Positions 2,912-23,470 of a stretch of 24,606 nt of DNA are shown here, one piece after another (the first letter of the stretch is position 1; every line of letters begins with the position of its first letter). Source of the DNA: a virus (taxonomy: Duplodnaviria > Heunggongvirae > Uroviricota > Caudoviricetes). The position numbers and the translations under genes were made by a program. Under the pieces are notes generated by a model. The model worked only from the letters and a program-made list of their open reading frames with translations, searched no databases and had not been told where the DNA came from. The DNA lies in IMG/VR virus record IMGVR_UViG_2737471843_000007. One strand, written 5' to 3'.

Positions 2912-3486
2912 ACCGGGCCTCCGGTTGTGTCGCCGCCTTTCAGGACGCCAGTATGCTGATGTGCATCAACCACAATTCCGTTAGAACTCATTGCACCGCC
3001 GCCCTGGGTAACACCACCATTGATCACTACTTCGCTGTTAATACGCGTGCGGTCAGCCTCCAGCACAAACTCACTGGTTTTCAGGGTGATGTTGTCGGCA
3101 GCCTCAATGACCATGGATTTGATGCCCCTGACATACCAGCGCCCGGTGGCGGGTTCGTATTCAAACCAGCCACCGTCAGGATGTTCTGTCACGCAGGCGT
3201 CCGCCGACGTCGAAGGTGGCGCGAACTGATTCGAATAGACAGCGGGCAACGCAAAGGCGGTTTCCAGATTGCCTCCCAGACTCAGCAGCACCACCTGCTC
3301 ACCTTCCGATGGTCGCCACCATGTGCGGGCATTCCCGGCACGCAGCGTCAGCCAACTGATCCAGTTAGTTTCAAGGTCGCCCGTTTTCACCCGGCAAAGC
3401 CAGTTCTCCCGGTCCACTTCGGTAACTACACCTGTGCGGATCAGGTTGGTGATAAGGCGCATGATTTCGGTTAATTGTGCGTTCAT
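2908..3486 (-). CDS. V: Baseplate spike / tail protein (P2 gpV-like)
   Basis: The internal start MNAQLTEIMRLITNLIRTGVVTEVD aligns with the P2 gpV N-terminus (MN...IRTGII); ATG at 3486-3484. The upstream extension to 3729 runs into AT-rich intergenic DNA and is rejected. No clear SD precedes the ATG. Confidence 0.85.
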   Translation of the reverse strand: MNAQLTEIMRLITNLIRTGVVTEVDRENWLCRVKTGDLETNWISWLTLRAGNARTWWRPSEGEQVVLLSLGGNLETAFALPAVYSNQFAPPSTSADACVTEHPDGGWFEYEPATGRWYVRGIKSMVIEAADNITLKTSEFVLEADRTRINSEVVINGGVTQGGGAMSSNGIVVDAHQHTGVLKGGDTTGGPV

Positions 3487-3532
3487 AGATATATGATGAC
3501 AGATGAAAATTTGTTTATAACTTCTTGCAAAT

Positions 3533-3550
3533 TGTGGTATCGATGGTACA
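3533..3550. promoter_or_regulatory. TGT-N12-ACA dyad, candidate binding site for an Ogr/B-type late activator (late promoter upstream of V)
   Basis: The sequence TGTggtatcgatggtACA is exactly TGT-N12-ACA. P2-family late promoters carry this dyad, but geometry relative to the V ATG (about 55 bp) is tighter than expected. Confidence 0.45.
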
Positions 3551-3589
3551 AATTGACAAAAGGATAAAAAACAACCAATAGGTGGATAA

Positions 3590-4396
3590 ATGAGTGTTAT
3601 GAATCCAATAAGTTCTAATATATTTAATGCTGAATTTTTAAACACCCCGGCAGCGGCACTTGCCGCATGGATTTCCATTATTGGAGCTGTTATAACTTTG
3701 GTGACGATAGTTATAAGAGCACTATTCAAATATAGAAAATCTCATGATGTAATTTTGAAAAAATCAGGAATACCTGCGTTTATATTAAATTTCTTTCTTA
3801 TAAAAATATCATTAAAAAGGCTGCCTACTATCACATGGGCTGAAAAATCATTCACGGTTCTATTTTCGCTTCTTTTTTTGTGTGCAATTTATCTTTTTGG
3901 TCCAGTTTTCATCCAAGCCATTAGAACCCCACCAAATAGCACATTGCTTTATTGGATAAAGTCCGGTGAATCATTTTATATGTCAAAAAAAATGGCGACT
4001 GCAGCTACAATATTAACCACTCCTGATTGGGAAATATCAAAGGATGATTGCGAAGAGTCATCCTCTGCCAGTACAGAGAAGTACAAATCATTAACTATCG
4101 AACATAAAGAAATTCTTTGTAAACTACTAACCACTGATGAAGGGAATGCTTACATTGATGAAGAAGTCAAGAATTTCGTTAAAGACAAATTTTTTATCTA
4201 TTCCTTTGCCCCAACAACTATATTTATTCTATTATGGATTTCTTTGGGTTTTATACTGACCATTCACTATTCTAAAAAAGTTAGGAAATATATTCTAACT
4301 GAACAAAAAAATGCAATTCATTGGGCATATGGTGAATTCAAGACAGAAGGAATCTATTCAATATATCAAGAGTTAGAACATAAGACTCACCATTAA
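3590..4396 (+). CDS. Cargo (moron) gene in the P2 orf30 position: predicted 3-TM membrane protein of unknown function
   Basis: The 268-aa ORF has an SD (GGTGGA) before the ATG at 3590. The region 3490-4390 is visibly AT-rich against the GC-rich backbone. Hydrophobic segments: AAALAAWISIIGAVITLVTIVI, FTVLFSLLFLCAIYLFGPVFIQAI and TTIFILLWISLGFILTIHY. The last 59 nt overlap the 3' end of S on the opposite strand. Confidence 0.6.
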   Translation: MSVMNPISSNIFNAEFLNTPAAALAAWISIIGAVITLVTIVIRALFKYRKSHDVILKKSGIPAFILNFFLIKISLKRLPTITWAEKSFTVLFSLLFLCAIYLFGPVFIQAIRTPPNSTLLYWIKSGESFYMSKKMATAATILTTPDWEISKDDCEESSSASTEKYKSLTIEHKEILCKLLTTDEGNAYIDEEVKNFVKDKFFIYSFAPTTIFILLWISLGFILTIHYSKKVRKYILTEQKNAIHWAYGEFKTEGIYSIYQELEHKTHH

Positions 4397-4784
4397 GACC
4401 CAGCAGTCGGCGCTCTGCGTAACGGACCTCCGGTCCTTTGCGACTGACGCGATCACGCAGGCCGTAATGGTGAACACGGGCAATACGCTGCACCTTGCCT
4501 TCAAACTGTACGCTGGCAGAGTCGGCGCTGGCGGCAGTTTTCAGGTATTTTGTGGTGCGCAGCTTTGCAAACATCTGACGTTTGATGCGGCCTTTTTTGC
4601 TGCGTGCTGTTACCCTGCGCGGTTCATAACTGCTGCCATCTGGATTGCGCTGCATCCTGATATTCTGCTGCTGTGTCCGGCGCAGTTCCTGCGCCAGCTG
4701 GCGCATCATGCGGCTTCTCGTGGCTGGTTCCAGATTCGCCAGCAAGGCACTCAGCCAGTCGTCCACCTTCTGCAGTTCAGCCAC
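4338..4784 (-). CDS. S: Tail completion protein (P2 gpS-like)
   Basis: The 148-aa ORF lies between R and V as in P2; it is basic and of similar length to gpS. Its C-terminal ~15 codons are encoded by AT-rich DNA shared with the moron. Confidence 0.8.
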   Translation of the reverse strand: MAELQKVDDWLSALLANLEPATRSRMMRQLAQELRRTQQQNIRMQRNPDGSSYEPRRVTARSKKGRIKRQMFAKLRTTKYLKTAASADSASVQFEGKVQRIARVHHYGLRDRVSRKGPEVRYAERRLLGLNGESYVLTLDILNRFLLS

Positions 4785-12761: not shown

Positions 12762-13100
12762 TTAACAAACGGCGTATAAACCATCAAATCCAACGGAATG
12801 AACCTTTTTTGATGCTACTTCATTACTACGGCGTTGGATCACTTTTGCAATACTTTTTAAAATTGAAGGGGGTGCATTGCGAACCTTAACTTGACTCAAA
12901 ACTTTGGTTACACCGAATTTCACTACCAAAACACCAAAGATTTCATCAGAGTATGATTCTGAAATTGAATAAACACCGCTCAGATCTAAATCTACGGTAT
13001 ACCCTTCTTTAATGAACCCTTCAATCTTGTGTCGTTGGGGGATAGCCTGATTGCGCGAAGCCAGGTCACCCTCGGGTAACTTGTATGCGATTTTGTTCAT
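12762..13100 (-). CDS. Small STAS-like protein (DUF4325-like / anti-sigma-antagonist-like fold suspected); second gene of a two-gene cargo cassette
   Basis: The 112-aa ORF has a strong SD (AGGAGGAG). Its ATG overlaps the upstream stop (TAATG). The motif VDLDLSGVYSISESYSDEIFGVLVVKFG resembles STAS-like domains from memory; the region is AT-rich. Confidence 0.55.
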   Translation of the reverse strand: MNKIAYKLPEGDLASRNQAIPQRHKIEGFIKEGYTVDLDLSGVYSISESYSDEIFGVLVVKFGVTKVLSQVKVRNAPPSILKSIAKVIQRRSNEVASKKVHSVGFDGLYAVC

Positions 13101-14074
13101 TACTCTCCTCCTAACGCCCGCATTATTTCCATAAGCTGAGGGTCATTTTCTTCGCTATCTTTATCGACTGCCAGTTCATGAATCTTAAAACGGCAAGAAA
13201 TTGCTACACCCGGCCATTCAGTACGTAATTCAGTATAGCTCACTTCATCACCTATTGCTTCTAAGCATACATTTCCTGAAGCCAGTTGCAATTCCCCATT
13301 ATATGTTTTTATCAATTTCATCAAGTGATACAACCCAAGCCCTTGATGATTATTATCTTTTTCTTTGACCGAAACCCCGTGGCCAAACACACTACCCCCA
13401 ATAAAGTCCTGGGGAAGCTGCTGTGCCCAATCATCCTGCAAATCAGCATGCTTAGATGAATGTCCCTCTTGAATACACCATGCGATCGCATCCTGGTGAG
13501 TCTCAATTCCGGGTATACCAGCTCGCCGCAATTCTCGGAGAAATCCTAACCCACAGTCCGCCAAAGAAAATTCTAAATAGTGCTCTTTTTTTTGAGTGTG
13601 GGGTACAGCCGAACGTTGTGCAAAAGAAAAACCCGTTGATTTTCCATGCGACCAAACGTTATCGTGAAGCTCACCTATAACATGGGTTAGATCTGTAAGT
13701 CCCTTGGGACAATCTCTCGGATCACGATCAGGGAATGTTAACTGCCTTACACAACTGTTAATACTACCAGTGGCAACGTCAACAGCTTCAACATTGGTTA
13801 ATGCTGTAACCAAACTGTAATTTCTTCCAACATTTACACGTTCCTGTTGATACTGATCCTCTCCCCATAAAGCACCATGTAAATTGATAGCTCGCATATA
13901 GCCAGGGCATGACAAAACACAGTTATCTTCGGTAATTTTGTGATGATTCACGTAAGCTGCTAAGACAGTGATAAAACCAGGATGCCAATGATTGTTTGGC
14001 AATTGCAATTCATTAGTTTCCTTTTGATGAAACGCAGCGGTATGCACAATAGCGTCTTTTAATCCTAACCCCAT
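13100..14074 (-). CDS. GHKL (histidine-kinase-like, Bergerat fold) ATPase-domain protein; first gene of the cargo cassette
   Basis: The 324-aa ORF carries, in correct order, an N-box-like GELHDNVWSHG, a G1-box LADCGLGF (DxGxG) and a G2-box HQGLGLYHL (GxGxG). It is AT-rich and translationally coupled to the downstream small gene. Confidence 0.6.
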   Translation of the reverse strand: MGLGLKDAIVHTAAFHQKETNELQLPNNHWHPGFITVLAAYVNHHKITEDNCVLSCPGYMRAINLHGALWGEDQYQQERVNVGRNYSLVTALTNVEAVDVATGSINSCVRQLTFPDRDPRDCPKGLTDLTHVIGELHDNVWSHGKSTGFSFAQRSAVPHTQKKEHYLEFSLADCGLGFLRELRRAGIPGIETHQDAIAWCIQEGHSSKHADLQDDWAQQLPQDFIGGSVFGHGVSVKEKDNNHQGLGLYHLMKLIKTYNGELQLASGNVCLEAIGDEVSYTELRTEWPGVAISCRFKIHELAVDKDSEENDPQLMEIMRALGGE

Positions 14075-14103
14075 GAACCGAACCTTTTTTATGCATTTTT
14101 CTT

Positions 14104-14132
14104 ATCATATAACTTAGGACTGATCAGCGCAA
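14104..14132 (-). promoter_or_regulatory. Candidate sigma70 promoter for the GHKL/STAS cassette
   Basis: On the minus strand: TTGCGC, 17-nt spacer, TATGAT, about 25 nt upstream of the ATG at 14074. Confidence 0.35.
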
Positions 14133-14192
14133 AGCTCCCGACACTATTGAATCATACTAAATTAAGGCCTATACCACACAGCACAGCGCGCG

Positions 14193-14211
14193 CTCGTATC
14201 CCCGCCACGCC
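14193..14211. other. Candidate cos site (cohesive-end sequence of the P2/186 family)
   Basis: The minus strand reads GGCGTGGCGGGGATACGAG. The first 13 nt match the cohesive-end sequence of P2/186 as I recall it (GGCG[A/T]GGCGGGGA...). It lies between the early region and the late region, as expected. Confidence 0.5.
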
Positions 14212-14255
14212 TGCCCGCTTTATGTAGTGGTTTTCATGCACCTGCATGATCTACG

Positions 14256-14280
14256 CAAAAGCCCGCCAGAACTGGCGGGC
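14256..14280 (-). terminator. Rho-independent terminator ending the minus-strand early/cargo transcript before cos
   Basis: Perfect inverted repeat GCCCGCCAG-aa-CTGGCGGGC, followed on the minus strand by TTTTG. Confidence 0.55.
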
Positions 14281-14384
14281 CTTAACACAAAAGATCCTCA
14301 AACGATCATGCGATCTCATGCAGCATAGACATGCGCGTTTATGCAGAATGTGCAAAATCGTAACATACTCAGTAAGCGTGAAAC

Positions 14385-15062
14385 CTAGAACGTGACAGCC
14401 TTGTCAAAGCCAGAAATAATTGTATAAGAAATAGACGAGTTATCAGCCTTGTTCACTTTGAACTTGGCACCTTTGTAAGCGATAACGTCACTTCCCTTAG
14501 AATCTACAGAAAAATCTGTTGTAAATGCTGCACGAGCCATATCGTTTGCAAATTCACGATAGGTGAACTTCATTACACCGCCTGCATTTCCATTGTATTC
14601 GATAGTCTTAACCAATGAGTTACTAACTCGACACAGCCCATCAGGAACACGTTTGATAGAAATTTCTGATGCAGTATAAGAAGTACCATTTGGCGGTGAT
14701 ATCTCATTTTTTGCAGCATCGTAACTAACATAATCAACATAGTTACCGATTTGCCCATAGAGATTTTTTAACGCAACAGCTTGAGGGTTATGATAATTGC
14801 GGTAAATTCCATTCCCCTCACTGCAATATGTACCAGCAGCGATAGAAGACAATGCACCATTAGCCGCACCAAGTTCTAGTACGTCCGTTTTAAATCCAGT
14901 AGCAGATGTGATAATGGGATCGCCCATGTAGGCGGTAGCACTTTGCCCAATAGCAGGCTTCACCACTTCAATAGCAGTGATATTTCGGTTAGAAGCATGT
15001 GGCACGCAACCAGTTAGGATTACAGCAAGAGATATTGGTAACGCTACATTATTAATTTTCAT
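14385..15062 (-). CDS. Cargo lipoprotein of unknown function (predicted outer-membrane lipoprotein)
   Basis: From the internal Met the protein starts MKINNVALPISLAVILTGC, with lipobox LTGC. The ORF-track start at 15116 would span a hairpin plus T-tract and is rejected. The start coordinate may be off by 1-2 nt. The region is AT-rich. Confidence 0.6.
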   Translation of the reverse strand: MKINNVALPISLAVILTGCVPHASNRNITAIEVVKPAIGQSATAYMGDPIITSATGFKTDVLELGAANGALSSIAAGTYCSEGNGIYRNYHNPQAVALKNLYGQIGNYVDYVSYDAAKNEISPPNGTSYTASEISIKRVPDGLCRVSNSLVKTIEYNGNAGGVMKFTYREFANDMARAAFTTDFSVDSKGSDVIAYKGAKFKVNKADNSSISYTIISGFDKAVTF

Positions 15063-15175
15063 TTTTAGCCTATTATTCTTTTCTTGACAAAAAACAAGGC
15101 GATATCTGATTGACATCGCCTCTCACTCATATGTAACCCTTTTTGATTAGTAAAAACAAGCGTCTATTGACAAAA

Positions 15176-15409
15176 TCAATGCAGCCAGCTGTCGTCTTCC
15201 CACACCTTCTGCATAATTTTCATCACTTGTTTTCTTTCTTCGTCCAGTTGCAGTCCGGTCAGTTCCACACCGTTAGAGCTACCTTTACGGATACGGATTA
15301 CCGTTTTGGGATACAGGGGGCGCAGATTGCGGTAAAGCTCGGATTCAAGGGCGTCCAGGGTAGACTGGCTAATCTTCTGCTCTTTATCGATCATTATTTC
15401 AATGCGCAT
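15176..15409 (-). CDS. DinI-like protein (SOS-associated; possibly the DinI-like part of a Tum-type module)
   Basis: From the internal ATG at 15409, preceded by SD GAGGTGA, the protein MRIEIMIDKEQKISQSTLDALESELYRNLRP...WEDDSWLH resembles E. coli DinI (MRIEVTIAK...). The longer ORF-track N-terminus is rejected. Confidence 0.75.
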   Translation of the reverse strand: MRIEIMIDKEQKISQSTLDALESELYRNLRPLYPKTVIRIRKGSSNGVELTGLQLDEERKQVMKIMQKVWEDDSWLH

Positions 15410-15419
15410 AAAAGTCACC

Positions 15420-15608
15420 TCAACTGATGACATCCATTGAGCGGTTGTATTCGTGGGTTCTGATTTTTGCCATGAGTTCATCAGTCAATTCAGAAACCCA
15501 CTGCAGAGCCAGCCCCTTTTCTTCATCACTACACTCACTAGCCGCTACAAGCTTAAGAAAAAAATCAATGCGCTGGAGCTTCAAAGACTCCAAAAAATAG
15601 TCCTGCAT
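15420..15608 (-). CDS. Small SOS-controlled ORF upstream of the DinI-like gene (Tum-like N-terminal module?)
   Basis: The 62-aa ORF has a strong SD (AGGAGG) 6-8 nt before the ATG and a perfect LexA box ~45 nt upstream. It stops 11 nt before the DinI-like ATG. Confidence 0.5.
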   Translation of the reverse strand: MQDYFLESLKLQRIDFFLKLVAASECSDEEKGLALQWVSELTDELMAKIRTHEYNRSMDVIS

Positions 15609-15651
15609 CTTTCCTCCTATGACACCACAAGCAATACTGTATACATAACCA

Positions 15652-15667
15652 CTGTTTATATTTACAG
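15652..15667. promoter_or_regulatory. LexA box (SOS operator)
   Basis: CTGTttatatttACAG is a perfect CTGT-N8-ACAG. An overlapping half-site box (CTGTatacataaCCAC) lies immediately upstream at 15637-15652. Confidence 0.7.
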
Positions 15668-15761
15668 CATATAATAATCTTACTGATGTAAAACGTTTTT
15701 TTACGCTTATCAGCCTGATATGCCTGGTATTATTAAGAGCACGAATTGTTAACCAGCGTAA

Positions 15762-18176
15762 TTAATACAGGTTCCGCCACTTATCATCTTCCTGCAAACG
15801 CTGGTTCCGATAGAAGATACGCAAGCCTGCTCCTGACGGAATACTGCCGCCGCGAAGGAGTAAATCGACCTCTTTCTCGCTACCATCAAATCCTCTGGAC
15901 TTCAGCTCATAGACGAGCTGCAGTCGCTGATGGTCTGTAATTCGCTGTTTGTAGTCTTTACGCCGTTTCGGTTTCACCAGGCGTAACCTTGCAGCCAGTT
16001 CCCGGCGCTCTTTTTTGTTCATACTGTGCAGGTAATCGTGCAACTCCTTGTCATCCATGCTGGTAATGTCCGTTCTGGGGGCCCCATCAGCTGATTTATC
16101 TTTCTCCTGTTGGTTCAAATTTTCAGCAAGGGGACAGTTATTGCCACGAGTCCAAGGGGCGCAAGCGCCCTGGTCGGCTGCCGCCTCCTGAACGTCAACG
16201 GCCTTACGAACCATTTTCCACTTCACGGCATGAGTGCAGATTTTGCCCTCTGTAATGGGTGACCAGATGCCATAAATACGAATGCCGTGATCGCCATAGG
16301 CGGTCGGCTCTTCGTTGATTTCATAAGCGGTTCTGATGAGGTGATATTTACGGGGAACCAGTACGCCGCCCTGCTTCATGATGTAGGTGGCAAAACAACC
16401 AGCATCAGCTGCAGCCAGAATGGCATCAAGGCGCGGGTTATCCAGTACCGGCGCACCTGCTTTTTTGTCACCCTGTTGCCTTGCCGCCTGACCAGCCAGC
16501 AATCGCAGTTCACGGTAAGCCTGACGCCCCGGAATGCCAAAGAAGCGGAATTGCTGAACACGATGCAGAGACGCCCAGGCATTAACGTATTCAGCGTTAT
16601 CACGCAGAGATTTACCCGTTTCCTTGCTGATCTCGCCAGCCAGACCACGCCCGTCAATGTTCTTACTGATGTATTTCGCGATGTAGCTAGTCGGCGTTCC
16701 TTTGCGCGGGTTTATCAGCTCAGACTTAAAGCGTGGCCCCGTGTTATTACCCAGCTCCTCGCGGTCTTCACGGATAGCAAACTTACGCAACAATGCAGTA
16801 ATGGCGCGGCGGTCTTTTTTGCGCATGAAACACAACAGGTGCCAGTGAACTGTGCCGTCATGATGCGGCTCAGCCACCCGCACGCCATACCAGCGCAATC
16901 CGGCTTTGTGCATCGCCTTACGAAATGCAGCAAACATGCCGACCAGATAATCACTGCTTTGTCTTACCGTCGCATTTGTCCAGGTCGGGTTGGGCCTGCC
17001 GTTATTTAGCGTGGAATGGAAACGTGACGGACAGGTGATGGTGTAGAAAACGGCGCAGTCACCGCGCATTTCCGCGATAAGCTCCAGACCTTTAACACAG
17101 GCCATCATCTCATTGCGGCGATGCGCAGGGTTGCTGCTGCTGGCGTTTACCACATCCTCCATGTCCAGCGTATCGCCGTCTTCGTTCACCAGTTCATGAG
17201 AACGGAAAAACTCCAGCGACTTACGGCGCTGCTCACGTTTATGCATCACGGCTTCATAGCTGACATAGGGAGATGCTTTTTTGCTGACCAGGCAAACAGC
17301 ACGCAACTGCTCTTCCCGCCATTCGCAACGCATCTTCCACAATTTCCGATACCACCAGTCGGCGCACAGCATACGCGCCAGCGACCCCGGAATGAGTTCA
17401 TAGGGCACGGGTTTACGGCGGTTTCTTTTCCGGCGGAGTTGCTCAAACGCAGGCGGTATGACATCCAGTCGCAGGGTTTCCGCCGCCACCTTTTCCCATG
17501 TCTTGCGGATTTCTTCTGGCTTAACGTCATCGGTGGCATACAAATCGCCACAAGCGGCATCAAGGCACATGCTCATATGCGCAGCTACCAGGGTGGACAG
17601 GCGTTTCACCTGATCCTGACTCATTTCAGGCAGGATCAGCAGACCGTCCAGCCCTTCATGGCTTGCCATAAAGCGAAAAGAAGTGGATAGCTGACTGTCG
17701 CGTACATGCTCCAGTCGTTCCAGACATGGCTTAATCGTCTCACGCAAATAGCGGGAATAAGCCTTTGGCCTGCCCAGGCTGCTGAAGTATTCAATACGTT
17801 GCATCAGCGGCTTGCTGATATGGGAAGGCTGGGCGTTGACGTCCGCCAGAATGACCATATCCGGATTAAAACGCTGCTGCTCATGCGCCAGCTTTGCCCG
17901 ACTAATGAGCTTATCCTGTTCCATTTCGCGCTGGACAGGATCACGGGATTCATTAAAGAAATAACGCTCCCAGACCTGATCACTCAGCGCCTCACGGCGC
18001 AGCTGTTCCTGCTCGTTATCGGCAGCGTACAGAGTGATCAGGTTTGAAAGCGCAGAAACCGGCGCAACTTCCGCCGGGTCCAGATAAGGGTTAATGGCCT
18101 TTTTCGGGCTGTTCCATGAGAATGCTGCGGCGACCTCGTTAAAGCCGCTGCAGTTGTTCATATCAGCATGGCTCAT
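15762..18176 (-). CDS. A: Rolling-circle replication initiator (P2 gpA / 186 A-like, HUH endonuclease)
   Basis: The 804-aa ORF contains an HUH-type motif ([10 protein letters not shown]) and tyrosine motif ([10 protein letters not shown]). It is translationally coupled to the upstream methylase (ATGA). Confidence 0.95.
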
Positions 18177-21176: not shown

Positions 21177-21773
21177 ATGTCAACATCAAAGTACCCAAGT
21201 GAGATCAAAATAAATCCCAATAAAGGTGGTAAGGCTGCGATTGAGCGATTAGTCGAAGCTTATGGCTTTACGACACGACAGGCTTTAGCTGATCACTTGG
21301 AAGTATCAAAAAGCACTCTGGCGAACAGGTATTTGCGGGATACGTTTCCTGCAGACTGGATAATCCAATGTGCTCTTGAAACAGGAACCTCACTGAAATG
21401 GTTAACCACCGGGCAAGGACTTAAGCAAAGCTCGCTGACAGTAGCCACAGAAGAGCTTCCCAAGTTTCGCCTTACCGCAGGCAAAATGATTGAAGATGGT
21501 TCATATGTCTTCGATTCATCATTTCTTCCTGCAAATCTTTCATCACCAATTGTTATTCAGGATGGGCTTGTCACATACATTTGTGATCAAAAATTTTCTG
21601 AAGTACTTGATGGGCACTGGTTAATCAACATCGACGGAACCTATTCCATTCGAAAAATCACAAAGCTTCCAAAAGGTATGATTAAAATTACAACTACAGA
21701 GAATAGCTTTGAATGTGCATTTTCTGATATTGAAGTGGTTGCTTGTATAAGAAGTACAATAGTTTCAAATTGA
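21177..21773 (+). CDS. cI: CI-type immunity repressor (186 CI-like)
   Basis: The 198-aa ORF has an N-terminal HTH region (GFTTRQALADHLEVSKSTLANRYLR) and the conserved CALETG motif, upstream of int as in 186. Confidence 0.75.
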   Translation: MSTSKYPSEIKINPNKGGKAAIERLVEAYGFTTRQALADHLEVSKSTLANRYLRDTFPADWIIQCALETGTSLKWLTTGQGLKQSSLTVATEELPKFRLTAGKMIEDGSYVFDSSFLPANLSSPIVIQDGLVTYICDQKFSEVLDGHWLINIDGTYSIRKITKLPKGMIKITTTENSFECAFSDIEVVACIRSTIVSN

Positions 21774-21793: not shown

Positions 21794-23470
21794 ATGAATT
21801 CATTTTCCATCGTTATATTCTTATTAGCATTTCTCGCCCCTGTTCTAGCTATAATATTATTTAAGCAAAGTAAAGAACACAAAACCGCCATAGATAACCT
21901 GACGGCTAACAACATAGCTCTTTCCAGCCAACTGAAAGAAAATCAAGAAGAATTAGCACAGACTGTACGAGATCTATCAGAGCTTGAAGGACGAGCTGCA
22001 CCATTATGGCAATACGTAGAATTGCACAGCGCAGTGATGGAAGCAGAGAATAAGATAAAAAATGCAGACTCAATAGCCAGGCAAAAAATAGAAGAAGCCC
22101 AAATAAAGGCTGCTAAGACAGTAAACGAAGCAAATTATCAAGCTCAGATAACAATAAGCAACGCTAATAGCGAAGCTATAGCAATCACCAAAGACGCTCG
22201 CGATGCACGCCTGAAAGCCAAAGAACGTCTTGATAATGCCAACAGTAAAGCAAATGAGCTGATCTCAAATGCTAATGACAACGCAGTAAAAATTATTTCC
22301 GATGCAGAAGAAAGAGCAAAAGAGATTGCTGGTTCAGCATATGAAGCTAAAGAGTTTGCAGAAAAATATGAAGCAGTTGCCAAATCAATGAAAAATAAAA
22401 TTGAAGGTTATGGCGATGAATGGATCATCCCTAACCGTAGTGTACTTGATGAATTGGCAGAAAATTATGAGTTTACAGATGCAGGCAAGGAATTACAAAA
22501 AGCCAGGGAGTTAACAAAATCATTAATAAAAACTAATAAAGCAGCTTCGTGTGATTATGTTGAGCAAAACAGGCGTAATACTGCTATCAACTTTGTTTTG
22601 GATGCCTTCAATGGAAGAGTTGACAGTATTTTATCAAAAGTCAAACACAACAATTTTGGAAAACTTTCCCAAGAAATAAAAGATGCATTTCAACTTGTAA
22701 ATTATAATGGCTCTGCTTTTAAATCCGCAAAAATAAGTGACATCTATCTTCAGGCACGACTCAACGAGCTAAAATGGGGAGTTGCAGTTAATGAAATTAT
22801 GCTCGAAGAAAAAGAGGAGCAAAGAAGGATTAAAGAACAGCTTCGTGAAGAGGAAAGAGCTCGTAGAGAGTATGAAAAAGCGATAAAAGAAGCCGAAAAA
22901 GAAGAGAAAGCTATTCAACAAGCTATAAATAAAGCGACGAAAGAGCTTATGCTTGCAAATGAAGAACAACGCTTAGCTTTAGAGCAAAAAATAGCTGAAC
23001 TACAGTTAAAATATGAAGAAGCTGAAGCTAAAAACCAACGAGCTATTTCTATGGCTCAACAAACTAGATCAGGCCATGTTTATATAATTAGCAATATTGG
23101 CTCATTTGGCGAAGATGTATATAAAATTGGAATGACACGCCGCCTTGAACCACTTGATCGTGTTCGTGAACTTGGGGATGCTAGTGTTCCTTTTTCGTTC
23201 GATGTTCATGCGATGATTTATAGTGATGATGCACCGTCATTAGAAAATCATCTGCATAAAGTCTTCAACGAAAAGCAGGTCAATAAAATTAACTCACGAA
23301 AAGAGTTTTTTAACGTAAATATTAAAGAAATTAAATCGGTTATTGAAGATATGAACATCAATGCCCACTGGACAATGTTTGCAGAGGCGAAAGAATATAG
23401 AGAGTCACTAGCTATTGAGCAGGAACGCAAAGCAGCCACTTCCGCCAACGATGAACTACATGTTGCTTAG
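21794..23470 (+). CDS. Cargo gene: membrane-anchored coiled-coil protein with DUF4041-like region and C-terminal T5orf172 (GIY-YIG-like) domain
   Basis: The 558-aa ORF has SD AAGGA before the ATG and is strongly AT-rich. It has an N-terminal TM (FSIVIFLLAFLAPVLAIILF) and a long K/E/A-rich coiled coil. The C-terminus GHVYIISNIGSFGEDVYKIGMTRRLEPLDRVRELGD...LENHLHKVFNEKQVN...KEFFNV fits the T5orf172/Mug113 pattern. Confidence 0.7.
   Translation: MNSFSIVIFLLAFLAPVLAIILFKQSKEHKTAIDNLTANNIALSSQLKENQEELAQTVRDLSELEGRAAPLWQYVELHSAVMEAENKIKNADSIARQKIEEAQIKAAKTVNEANYQAQITISNANSEAIAITKDARDARLKAKERLDNANSKANELISNANDNAVKIISDAEERAKEIAGSAYEAKEFAEKYEAVAKSMKNKIEGYGDEWIIPNRSVLDELAENYEFTDAGKELQKARELTKSLIKTNKAASCDYVEQNRRNTAINFVLDAFNGRVDSILSKVKHNNFGKLSQEIKDAFQLVNYNGSAFKSAKISDIYLQARLNELKWGVAVNEIMLEEKEEQRRIKEQLREEERARREYEKAIKEAEKEEKAIQQAINKATKELMLANEEQRLALEQKIAELQLKYEEAEAKNQRAISMAQQTRSGHVYIISNIGSFGEDVYKIGMTRRLEPLDRVRELGDASVPFSFDVHAMIYSDDAPSLENHLHKVFNEKQVNKINSRKEFFNVNIKEIKSVIEDMNINAHWTMFAEAKEYRESLAIEQERKAATSANDELHVA

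What the first reader, a model, noticed from the sequence alone, without database searches (positions are those of the whole stretch)
14385..15120. Cargo lipoprotein adjacent to the cos site, in the position P2 uses for old/tin
At the right genome end, between the tum-like module and cos, P2 carries the defence genes old and tin. Here the slot is occupied by an AT-rich gene for a ~225-aa lipoprotein (lipobox LTGC, then a Gly/Ser/Thr/Asn-rich mature domain) with no resemblance I recognise. A hairpin plus T-tract (about 15085-15120) lies just upstream of the likely start, and a strong terminator lies downstream before cos, so it looks like an independently acquired unit. Prophage lipoproteins in such slots often block incoming phage DNA entry or modify a receptor.
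Basis: partly seen in the sequence, partly recalled or inferred. Interest (0 to 1): 0.5.

Follow-up and report, generated by a model that had tools for sequence, protein, structure and literature searches.

The report
SOS-operon cargo lipoprotein of P2-like prophage
A real, swappable gene for an outer-membrane lipoprotein of an uncharacterised phage family sits next to cos in a Fels-2/186-type prophage, as the last gene of the DNA-damage-inducible tum operon, where phage 186 keeps an unrelated gene that blocks infection; what it does is still untested.

Summary
Window 14385-15062 (- strand) encodes a 225-aa lipoprotein with lipobox LTGC, under strong purifying selection (dN/dS 0.04-0.15). It is AT-rich and flanked by two stable hairpin/T-tract elements. 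Cos lies at about 14193-14211.

It is identical to WP_000700647.1, which is Fels-2 STM2726 and is also carried by prophage DuoHS of E. coli HS. It belongs to phrog_1353, a large family with no Pfam, NCBIfam, PADLOC or PDB relative and no recognisable solved fold.

It is true cargo. The 843-bp block 14335-15177 is replaced by nothing, an HNH endonuclease, DUF4145, DUF6236 or other genes in otherwise about 95-98% identical E. coli prophages. Only 50 of about 1,280 genomes with this backbone carry it.

The gene is not free-standing. It lies downstream of a perfect LexA box, a 62-aa ORF, a DinI/Tum-like gene and a hairpin. This copies the phage 186 SOS operon (p95-tum-t95a-orf97-t95b-cos), whose non-homologous orf97 "blocks 186 infection". 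In Salmonella, STM2726-2728 are all induced by a mutagen.

The best reading is an SOS-co-induced envelope exclusion factor, and this part is inferred only. DuoHS data argue against a block of self-adsorption. It is a moderately interesting new member of a known kind.

The parts
15652..15667 (-). LexA (SOS) box CTGTAAATATAAACAG. It overlaps the presumed -10 (TGCTGT, 15669-15664), which lies 17 nt after TTTACA (15692-15687). This is the counterpart of the 186 promoter p95.
   Evidence: It is the only CTGT-N8-ACAG in the 24.6-kb window and matches the 20-nt LexA consensus at 16/20 positions (my count). It is conserved upstream of orf62 in 47 of the 58 IMG/VR loci, including variant forms next to diverged cassettes. 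The 186 record annotates the same layout. LexA control of tum was shown experimentally in DuoHS, which has the identical DinI-like protein.
15420..15608 (-). 62-aa ORF, first gene of the SOS operon (phrog_698; TumA-like position).
   Evidence: It is conserved at 79-100% in the IMG/VR loci.
15176..15409 (-). DinI-like / Tum C-terminal-domain protein (77 aa), second gene of the SOS operon.
   Evidence: Pfam DinI E 1.3e-22; phrog_189 E 1.7e-30. PGAP names it WP_001217575.1. Its Fels-2 orthologue STM2727 is induced 5.5- to 14.8-fold by the mutagen MX.
15086..15122 (-). Hairpin (11 pairs) plus T-tract between the DinI-like gene and the lipoprotein gene. Proposed partial terminator or attenuator, analogous to 186 t95a.
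   Evidence: dG -16.6 kcal/mol, z -4.6. One compensatory C-G to U-A change keeps the stem in the 88%-identity variant L057. 186 t95a is annotated 'partial termination of p95 transcript'.
14385..15062 (-). Lipoprotein gene: 225 aa, 19-aa signal peptide with lipobox LTG|C, Val at +2, and an all-beta mature domain of 206 aa. Member of phrog_1353.
14254..14283 (-). Strong intrinsic terminator ending the operon (counterpart of 186 t95b), located in the conserved cos-proximal segment.
   Evidence: dG -23 kcal/mol, z -4.65. The segment is shared with other E. coli prophages.
14193..14211 (-). Cos cohesive-end sequence GGCGTGGCGGGGATACGAG.
   Evidence: Comparison with P2 cosR and the 186 genome end. 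Homology with other prophages breaks at 14185/14186.
14335..15177 (.). Swappable cargo cassette: hairpin, lipoprotein gene and about 50 nt of 3' flank. Its flanks are conserved in other Fels-2-like prophages.
   Evidence: The flanks 14186-14334 and 15178-15800 are shared at 87-99% identity. The interval between them is 83 bp in strain 2011C-3911 and holds other genes elsewhere.

Best explanation
The locus is an accessory ('moron') cassette. It encodes an outer-membrane-targeted lipoprotein of the uncharacterised phage family phrog_1353. It is inserted as the last gene of the LexA-repressed tum (SOS) operon of a Fels-2/186-type P2-like prophage, directly before the operon terminator and cos.

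Shown here:
- It is a real gene under purifying selection.
- It has a canonical SPase-II lipobox.
- It is dispensable and exchangeable cargo.
- The layout is LexA box, 62-aa ORF, DinI/Tum-like gene, hairpin plus T-tract, lipoprotein, terminator, cos. This copies the 186 SOS operon, in which orf97 is reached by read-through of the partial terminator t95a.
- The Salmonella orthologue is induced together with its two upstream genes by a DNA-damaging mutagen.

Inferred:
- LexA cleavage after DNA damage de-represses the promoter. A fraction of transcripts reads through the hairpin.
- The prolipoprotein is exported, lipidated at Cys19 and sent by Lol to the outer membrane, because +2 is Val and not Asp.
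- Its novel all-beta domain then acts at the envelope.

Most likely role, by position and analogy only: it protects the lysogen or the induced cell against incoming phage. It would interfere with a conserved envelope component needed for infection, such as a receptor or a DNA-entry step. This would parallel 186 orf97 ('expression from plasmid blocks 186 infection') and the Cor and Llp lipoproteins. It probably does not block adsorption of its own phage to O-antigen.
For: Gene and lipobox.

Cargo status: 50 of 1,281 E. coli genomes with this backbone carry it. The slot is otherwise empty or holds an HNH endonuclease, DUF4145, DUF6236 or other genes. GC is 0.38-0.42 against 0.53-0.60 in the backbone.

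Operon anatomy: LexA box, DinI-like gene, hairpin. There is one compensatory stem change in a diverged variant. No promoter-like site lies between the hairpin and the ATG.

The 186 record shows the same architecture and gives the orf97 phenotype.

Conservation: the order A, orf62, DinI, lipoprotein holds in 50 of 58 IMG/VR loci, 47 of them with a LexA box.

Expression: operon STM2726-2727-2728 is 100% up-regulated, fold change 2.6-14.8, p <= 0.01. STM2727 is listed in the Salmonella LexA regulon (PMC2225428). LexA-to-tum control was shown genetically in DuoHS (PMC12055606), which carries the identical lipoprotein and DinI-like proteins.

Independent contexts: LexA boxes also lie upstream of homologues in two unrelated settings (L073 and L019).

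Accessory character: homologues are morons in siphoviral, Mu-like, Vieuvirus and Moraxella phages and in a recombinase/AbiC island.
Against: No functional test exists for any member of the family. There is no similarity to any known exclusion or defence protein and no structural relative.

186 Orf97 is not homologous (BLASTP E 4.5; hhalign probability 0.3%), so the analogy is positional only.

Capsule-less DuoHS lysogens still bind DuoHS virions and are lysed from without, and virions stick to lysis debris (PMC13622650). The protein therefore does not mask that phage's O-antigen receptor.

Read-through of the hairpin has not been measured. The array paper assigns the operon computationally and does not give the fold change of STM2726 by itself. 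Basal expression from a weak promoter (TTGTCA-16-ACTAAT, 15173-15146) cannot be excluded.

Distant family members are chromosomal and not phage-linked. Most non-P2 homologues have no LexA box.
Confidence: 0.42

Rival explanations
1. It is a lysogenic-conversion factor that benefits the host rather than defending against phage. As an outer-membrane lipoprotein it would alter surface properties such as serum or complement resistance, adhesion or envelope stress tolerance, in the manner of lambda Bor or plasmid TraT.
For: The protein is an outer-membrane-type lipoprotein carried as a moron by many unrelated temperate phages. It is 99-100% identical in E. coli, Klebsiella and Salmonella prophages, including clinical clones. 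Distant members are ordinary chromosomal genes. P2 hotspots are known to carry virulence cargo as well as defence genes (Rousset 2022).
Against: There is no similarity to Bor, TraT or any Pfam family. Coupling to the SOS/tum operon, which fires when the prophage is about to kill the cell, is hard to reconcile with a long-term host benefit. Alternative cassettes in the same slot are defence-like: HNH endonuclease, DUF4145, and an AIPR-domain gene in the same A-to-Q locus.
Confidence: 0.2
2. It serves the phage's own lytic cycle after induction. It could be an 'anti-Kronos' factor that limits loss of progeny on induced cells and debris, or an aid to envelope remodelling or lysis, produced at the right time because it shares the SOS operon.
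For: SOS-timed expression is supported. T5 Llp sets the precedent for an early-expressed lipoprotein that protects progeny (established knowledge). One homologue lies just upstream of the holin/SLT lysis genes of a Mu-like prophage.
Against: The gene is absent from about 96% of closely related prophages, whose slot is empty or filled with unrelated genes, so it is not needed for the cycle. In DuoHS, which has the gene, virions still become trapped on neighbouring cells and lysis debris when capsule is lacking. P2-type phages already encode their own lysis proteins, including LysB/LysC (established knowledge; not checked in this window).
Confidence: 0.12
3. It is a self-contained moron, bracketed by terminators and expressed constitutively in the lysogen from its own weak promoter. 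On this reading the link to the SOS operon is only positional.
For: The cassette brings its own upstream hairpin/T-tract, which would insulate it from tum transcription. A weak TTGTCA-16-ACTAAT element lies upstream of the hairpin (sequence). The 79%-identity variants lack the hairpin. Siphophage and island homologues have no LexA box.
Against: The scan found no promoter-like site in the right place. STM2726 rises with STM2727 and STM2728 after DNA damage. 186 uses exactly this terminator-then-gene design for read-through expression of orf97. LexA boxes recur upstream of homologues in two non-P2 contexts.
Confidence: 0.15
4. It is a conserved structural or housekeeping phage protein, or a spurious ORF.
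For: None beyond its location between essential genes.
Against: dN/dS of 0.04-0.15 and thousands of homologues show a real gene. Its absence from most sister prophages shows it is dispensable. It has no similarity to virion or replication proteins.
Confidence: 0.02

Closest known systems
orf97 of the coliphage 186 SOS operon (p95-tum-t95a-orf97-t95b-cos; Brumby et al. 1996, as annotated in NC_001317)
   Same: The position and regulatory architecture are the same. It is the last gene of a LexA-repressed operon, after the Tum/DinI-like gene and a hairpin terminator and before a strong terminator and cos. It is a non-essential envelope protein of about 225-243 aa. For orf97 the record states 'expression from plasmid blocks 186 infection'.
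   Different: There is no sequence or profile similarity (E 4.5; hhalign probability 0.3%). By eye, Orf97 looks like an N-terminally membrane-anchored protein rather than a lipobox lipoprotein. The phenotype is known only for orf97.
Phage outer-membrane exclusion lipoproteins Cor (phi80/N15/HK022) and Llp (T5)
   Same: Both are phage-encoded lipoproteins predicted to reach the outer membrane and are carried as non-essential genes. Llp is produced during the lytic programme, as this protein would be after SOS induction. This comparison rests on established knowledge, not on a test here.
   Different: Cor and Llp are small (about 60-80 aa) and act on FhuA. This protein has a 206-aa mature all-beta domain with no detectable similarity to any annotated PHROG or Pfam family. 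Its target is unknown.
P2 Old and Tin, and the catalogued gpA-gpQ defence hotspot of P2-like phages (Rousset et al. 2022)
   Same: It occupies the same genomic interval, and alternative cassettes are swapped between conserved flanks. The protein already appears as 'hypothetical' in that paper's Table S5A loci.
   Different: Old and Tin are cytoplasmic abortive-infection or exclusion proteins transcribed from their own promoter on the opposite strand. This is an exported lipoprotein co-oriented with, and downstream of, the tum operon. It has no PADLOC match.
Lambda Bor / plasmid TraT surface lipoproteins
   Same: Both are lipoproteins encoded by mobile elements that reach the outer membrane and are carried as lysogenic-conversion cargo.
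   Different: There is no sequence similarity, since no Pfam hit of any kind was found. Bor is expressed in the lysogen, whereas this gene is tied to an SOS operon.

Membership tests
Bacterial lipoproteins (SPase II / Lgt substrates) | N-terminal signal peptide with a basic n-region, a hydrophobic h-region and a lipobox [LVI][ASTVI][GAS]C, with the Cys at residue 15-35 | tested here: met
   MK-INNVALPISLAVI-LTG|C with Cys19 meets the PS51257-type rule. G18 and C19 are invariant in 22 homologues.
Bacterial lipoproteins (SPase II / Lgt substrates) | Actual diacylglyceryl modification, globomycin-sensitive cleavage and outer-membrane sorting | not testable with these tools
   Val at +2, and never Asp across the family, predicts Lol-dependent outer-membrane sorting. 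No experiment was possible.
186-type SOS (tum) operon | LexA box overlapping the promoter upstream of a Tum/DinI-like gene, located between gene A and cos | tested here: met
   CTGTAAATATAAACAG lies at 15652-15667. The DinI domain scores E 1.3e-22. The layout matches NC_001317 and is conserved in 47 of 58 loci.
186-type SOS (tum) operon | Distal gene reached by read-through of a partial terminator (t95a), with the operon closed by a second terminator (t95b) | tested here: inconclusive
   Both hairpins are present and stable. STM2726-2728 are co-induced. Partial termination itself was not measured.
186 Orf97 protein family | Sequence or profile homology to Orf97 | tested here: not met
   BLASTP E 4.5; hhalign probability 0.3%.
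Known phage/plasmid surface lipoproteins (Cor, Llp, Bor, TraT) | Sequence similarity to the family models | tested here: not met
   The protein gave no Pfam hit at E <= 1, and 52 family members gave none at E <= 0.01 beyond four scattered single-member matches. The only strong PHROG is phrog_1353, function unknown. I did not check which models for these four families the libraries hold.
Catalogued anti-phage defence systems (PADLOC-DB v2) | Match to a defence-protein model | tested here: not met
   0 families at E <= 1.
phrog_1353 (uncharacterised phage protein family) | Full-length match to the family profile | tested here: met
   E 3.1e-105 over residues 1-223 of the protein and positions 1-230 of the 230-position profile. 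All 52 diverse homologues also match.
P2-type cos-proximal cargo hotspot (gpA-gpQ) | Located between A and Q next to cos, and variable among otherwise near-identical prophages | tested here: met
   The definition comes from PMC9122126.

The most novel reading that the evidence does not exclude
phrog_1353 could be a new, widespread class of envelope-acting phage lipoproteins with a fold unlike any solved structure. P2/186-type prophages would deploy it only when the SOS response fires. The timed outer-membrane factor would shut a conserved entry route (a receptor or the DNA-translocation step) against other phages while the prophage is replicating. Because the protein is 99-100% identical in E. 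coli, Klebsiella and Salmonella, its target would be a component shared by these genera.
Probability: 0.3. Interest if true: 0.6.

Novelty: new member of a known kind. Interest (0 to 1): 0.36.

Why it matters
Prophage lipoproteins that act at the cell surface are a small, poorly sampled class of phage-resistance and lysogenic-conversion factors.

This one is very common. The exact sequence occurs on 1,000 or more contigs. It is present in the model prophages Fels-2 (Salmonella LT2) and DuoHS (E. coli HS) and in epidemic Klebsiella clones.

It belongs to a family of more than 2,400 sequence clusters that has no domain annotation and no structural relative.

The gene rides in the LexA/tum operon in place of 186 orf97. 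That gives a concrete, testable idea: expression timed to DNA damage and an envelope-level exclusion role, in genetic systems that already exist.

If the exclusion role were confirmed, it would matter in two ways. It would add a new family to surface-level defence. It would also help predict phage-therapy failure in Klebsiella, E. coli and Salmonella lysogens. If the role is not confirmed, this remains an ordinary uncharacterised moron.

Tried and rejected
1. Sequence annotation. Pfam, NCBIfam and PADLOC gave nothing, and PHROGs gave only an unnamed family. This held for the protein and, for Pfam, PHROGs and NCBIfam, also for 52 diverse relatives. A PDB sequence search found 0 hits at E <= 10.

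3. Homology to 186 Orf97 was rejected. The equal ORF length of 732 nt is coincidence.

4. The 243-aa start at 15116 was rejected. It lies inside the hairpin, is not conserved, and puts the Cys outside the lipobox range.

5. An independent promoter was not supported. The only sigma-70-like match near the gene ends on the start codon.

6. Rfam found no known RNA element in 13900-15900.

7. Literature. No paper in the library studies STM2726 or WP_000700647 functionally. Rousset 2022 lists it only as 'hypothetical' in locus tables, and the stored copy of their summary table is truncated.

8. A viral-contig scan with the deep alignment failed for lack of conserved peptide stretches. It was redone with the close alignment.

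9. The 90% cluster that holds the protein is chimeric, mixing in branched-chain aminotransferases. I ignored its names.

Full report
**What is there**

The window is a Fels-2/186-type P2-like prophage, identical over this region to E. coli STEC1587. On the minus strand the gene order is:
- replication gene A (18176-15762)
- a 62-aa ORF (15608-15420)
- a DinI/Tum-like gene (15409-15176; Pfam DinI E 1.3e-22)
- the target ORF
- a strong terminator
- cos
- a two-gene block of a GHKL-like ATPase plus a STAS-like DUF4325 protein
- the portal gene Q on the opposite strand

The target's maximal ORF is 14385-15116. The supported start is the ATG at 15062 (225 aa). PGAP uses it, all homologues begin there, and the upstream ATG lies inside a hairpin stem.

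The N-terminus MKINNVALPISLAVILTG|C meets the PROSITE-type lipoprotein rule. G18 and C19 are invariant in 22 homologues. The rule holds in 42 of 52 distant relatives, and the +2 residue is never Asp, so outer-membrane sorting is predicted.

dN/dS against 96%, 88% and 79% variants is 0.04-0.15. The gene is real and constrained.

- GC is 0.38-0.42 against 0.53-0.60 in the backbone.
- A hairpin plus T-tract lies at 15122-15086 (dG -16.6 kcal/mol, z -4.6).
- A stronger terminator lies at 14283-14258 (dG -23 kcal/mol).
- Cos lies at 14211-14193, matching the P2 19-mer at 14/19 positions.
- The composition is only mildly Gly/Ser/Thr/Asn-rich, at 33%.

**Is it cargo?**

Yes. Megablast of the A-to-cos interval against 5,426 complete E. 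coli genomes finds the tum genes and the cos-proximal segment in 1,281 genomes. The whole interval is present in only 50.

Homology breaks exactly at 14334/14335 and 15177/15178. The 843-bp block starts at the DinI stop codon and ends about 50 nt after the lipoprotein stop.

In sister prophages that are otherwise 95-98% identical here, the same slot is:
- 83 bp of spacer
- an HNH endonuclease
- a DUF4145 or DUF6236 protein
- a 111-aa gene on the other strand (BL21)
- a two-gene hypothetical unit

The far side of cos, up to Q, is a second and even more variable slot. It holds a SEFIR protein, a retron, a 565-aa protein in Fels-2, or the GHKL/STAS pair seen here. Together these two slots make up the gpA-gpQ hotspot of Rousset et al. 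2022. Their locus table already lists this protein, WP_000700647, as 'hypothetical'.

The protein is 100% identical in many Klebsiella P2-like phages and in E. coli HS. It is 99% identical in Fels-2 (STM2726) and RE-2010. The A and Q proteins of the carrying phages differ by up to 12-14%, so the cassette moves between backbones.

The only CTGT-N8-ACAG in the window is a near-consensus LexA box at 15652-15667. It overlaps a -10-like hexamer upstream of the 62-aa ORF.

The annotated genome of coliphage 186 shows the same design after gene A: promoter p95 with a LexA site, tum, t95a ('partial termination of p95 transcript'), orf97 ('expression from plasmid blocks 186 infection'), t95b, cos. Here the hairpin/T-tract before the lipoprotein gene takes the place of t95a, and the lipoprotein gene takes the place of orf97.

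Three further observations fit read-through expression:
- No sigma-70-like site fits between the hairpin and the start codon.
- In the 88%-identity variant the stem is kept by one compensatory C-G to U-A change.
- Among 58 IMG/VR loci with the gene, 50 show A, orf62, DinI, lipoprotein. In 47 of them a LexA box lies upstream, including variant boxes next to diverged cassettes.

Experimental support comes from the literature:
- In Salmonella TA100 (Fels-2+), the predicted operon STM2726-STM2727-STM2728 was induced by the mutagen MX. All three genes had p <= 0.01 and fold changes between 2.6 and 14.8. STM2727 rose in a dose-dependent way from 5.5- to 14.8-fold and is listed in the LexA regulon (PMC2225428).
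- In E. coli HS, whose prophage DuoHS encodes the identical DinI-like and lipoprotein proteins, lexA(Ind-) and a tum deletion abolish induction (PMC12055606).

LexA boxes also precede homologues in two unrelated contexts. In L073 a box is followed by a 109-aa ORF and then the lipoprotein gene. In L019 a box lies 74 nt upstream of the gene. Siphophage and island copies lack them.

**What the protein is**

It is a full-length member of phrog_1353, function unknown (E 3e-105).

A profile search finds 2,434 50%-identity clusters at E <= 1e-3, mostly 210-240 aa lipoproteins. They come from Gammaproteobacteria and, more distantly, Beta- and Alphaproteobacteria. None of 52 diverse members has a Pfam or NCBIfam domain.

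Two further cysteines, C80 and C144, are invariant in the close family. That would suit a disulfide in an exported protein, but this is inference only.

Homologues sit in typical moron positions:
- beside Arc/antirepressor and tape-measure genes in Providencia and Klebsiella aerogenes siphophages
- before the lysis genes of a Mu-like prophage
- next to a toxin-antitoxin-like pair in Acinetobacter Vieuvirus
- among the tail genes of Moraxella phage Mcat28
- in a recombinase/AbiC island of K. pneumoniae

Remote members are ordinary chromosomal genes.

**How it most likely works**

The anatomy is shown. The following steps are inferred. DNA damage inactivates LexA. The tum operon fires. Some transcripts pass the hairpin. 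The prolipoprotein is exported, lipidated and delivered to the outer membrane, where its beta domain acts.

I favour a role in excluding incoming phage at the envelope, with a confidence of about 0.4. The reasons are:
- It occupies the place of 186 orf97, which blocks infection.
- The alternative cassettes in the slot are defence-like.
- The relatives are morons that often sit next to defence or toxin-antitoxin genes.
- Outer-membrane lipoproteins such as Cor and Llp set the precedent.

Against a block of its own phage's adsorption: capsule-less DuoHS lysogens still bind DuoHS virions and are lysed from without, and virions stick to debris (PMC13622650). Any exclusion would therefore act on other phages or after adsorption.

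The rivals are a host-benefit surface factor of the Bor/TraT type, a helper of the phage's own lytic cycle, and a constitutively expressed insulated moron. None is excluded. A structural or essential role is excluded, because most sister prophages lack the gene.

**Comparison and novelty**

The architecture is that of the 186 SOS operon, so the gene's position and expression are organised like orf97. It is not a member of the Orf97 family. It is also not a member of any catalogued defence or surface-lipoprotein family.

The gene has been seen before as an unnamed ORF. Its lipoprotein nature, its family, its cassette boundaries and its place in the LexA operon appear not to have been described in the literature I could search.

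I class it as a new member of a known kind: phage cargo at the cos hotspot, specifically a moron lipoprotein. Interest is moderate. Nothing about it is surprising to a specialist. It is, however, abundant, of unknown fold, and directly testable in Fels-2 and DuoHS.

Noticed in passing
window 12762-14074 (- strand): The slot between cos and portal gene Q holds a two-gene unit whose stop and start codons overlap. One gene is a 324-aa GHKL-like ATPase (weak HATPase_c, E 0.09; phrog_3364 E 2e-66). The other is a 112-aa STAS-like DUF4325 protein (Pfam E 3e-9; weak match to a DrmA segment in PADLOC, E 5e-6). It looks like a candidate defence pair. It is listed only as 'hypothetical + DUF4325' in Rousset 2022 Table S5A, and it recurs at 90-100% identity in IMG/VR loci L036, L057 and L076.
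   Followed up: partly
window 21794-23470 (+ strand): A 558-aa protein with DUF4041 and T5orf172/MUG113 domains matches the PADLOC model PD-Lambda-1 (E 8.5e-120). It sits between the 186-type cI repressor (21177-21773) and the integrase (from 23554) in an AT-rich stretch (GC about 0.35-0.39). This is a third cargo slot in the same prophage.
   Followed up: partly
window 3400-4400 (ORF 3590-4396, + strand): A sharply AT-rich island (GC 0.32-0.35 against about 0.57 on either side) contains a 268-aa DUF6216 protein. It is probably further cargo, but I did not annotate the flanking genes.
   Followed up: no
L073 5526-6654 (IMG/VR contig, Pantoea-like homologue, 54% identity): In a context unrelated to P2, a near-consensus LexA box (ACTGTATATTCTTACAGTA) precedes a 109-aa ORF of unknown function. 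The lipoprotein homologue follows 78 nt later. This looks like a second, independent SOS-linked arrangement of the family.
   Followed up: partly
L012, L014, L015 (E. coli Fels-2-like prophages), just after the DinI-like stop codon: Prophages with an empty slot or other cassettes share a roughly 75-nt element (GCTGGCGTC...GACGCCAGC hairpin, then GGTTGAACAACGAGC...GCGAGGCGTTAG). It also occurs downstream of orf97 in phage 186 and is absent from the lipoprotein cassette. Its function is unknown. It may be a recombination or terminator element that marks the slot boundary.
   Followed up: no
L016 6001-6651 (Rugamonas rivuli): A distant family member lies inside a chromosomal lipid or aryl-polyene-like biosynthetic cluster (ketoacyl synthases, an ApeP-like dehydratase, DUF3261, a phosphopantetheinyl transferase). 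This suggests the ancestral cellular role of the family may relate to outer-membrane lipid handling.
   Followed up: no
cluster 1 of the 90% protein collection: The 90%-identity cluster that contains this lipoprotein is represented by a 308-aa branched-chain amino-acid transaminase and mixes both proteins. This is a clustering artefact, and names taken from that cluster would mislead.
   Followed up: no
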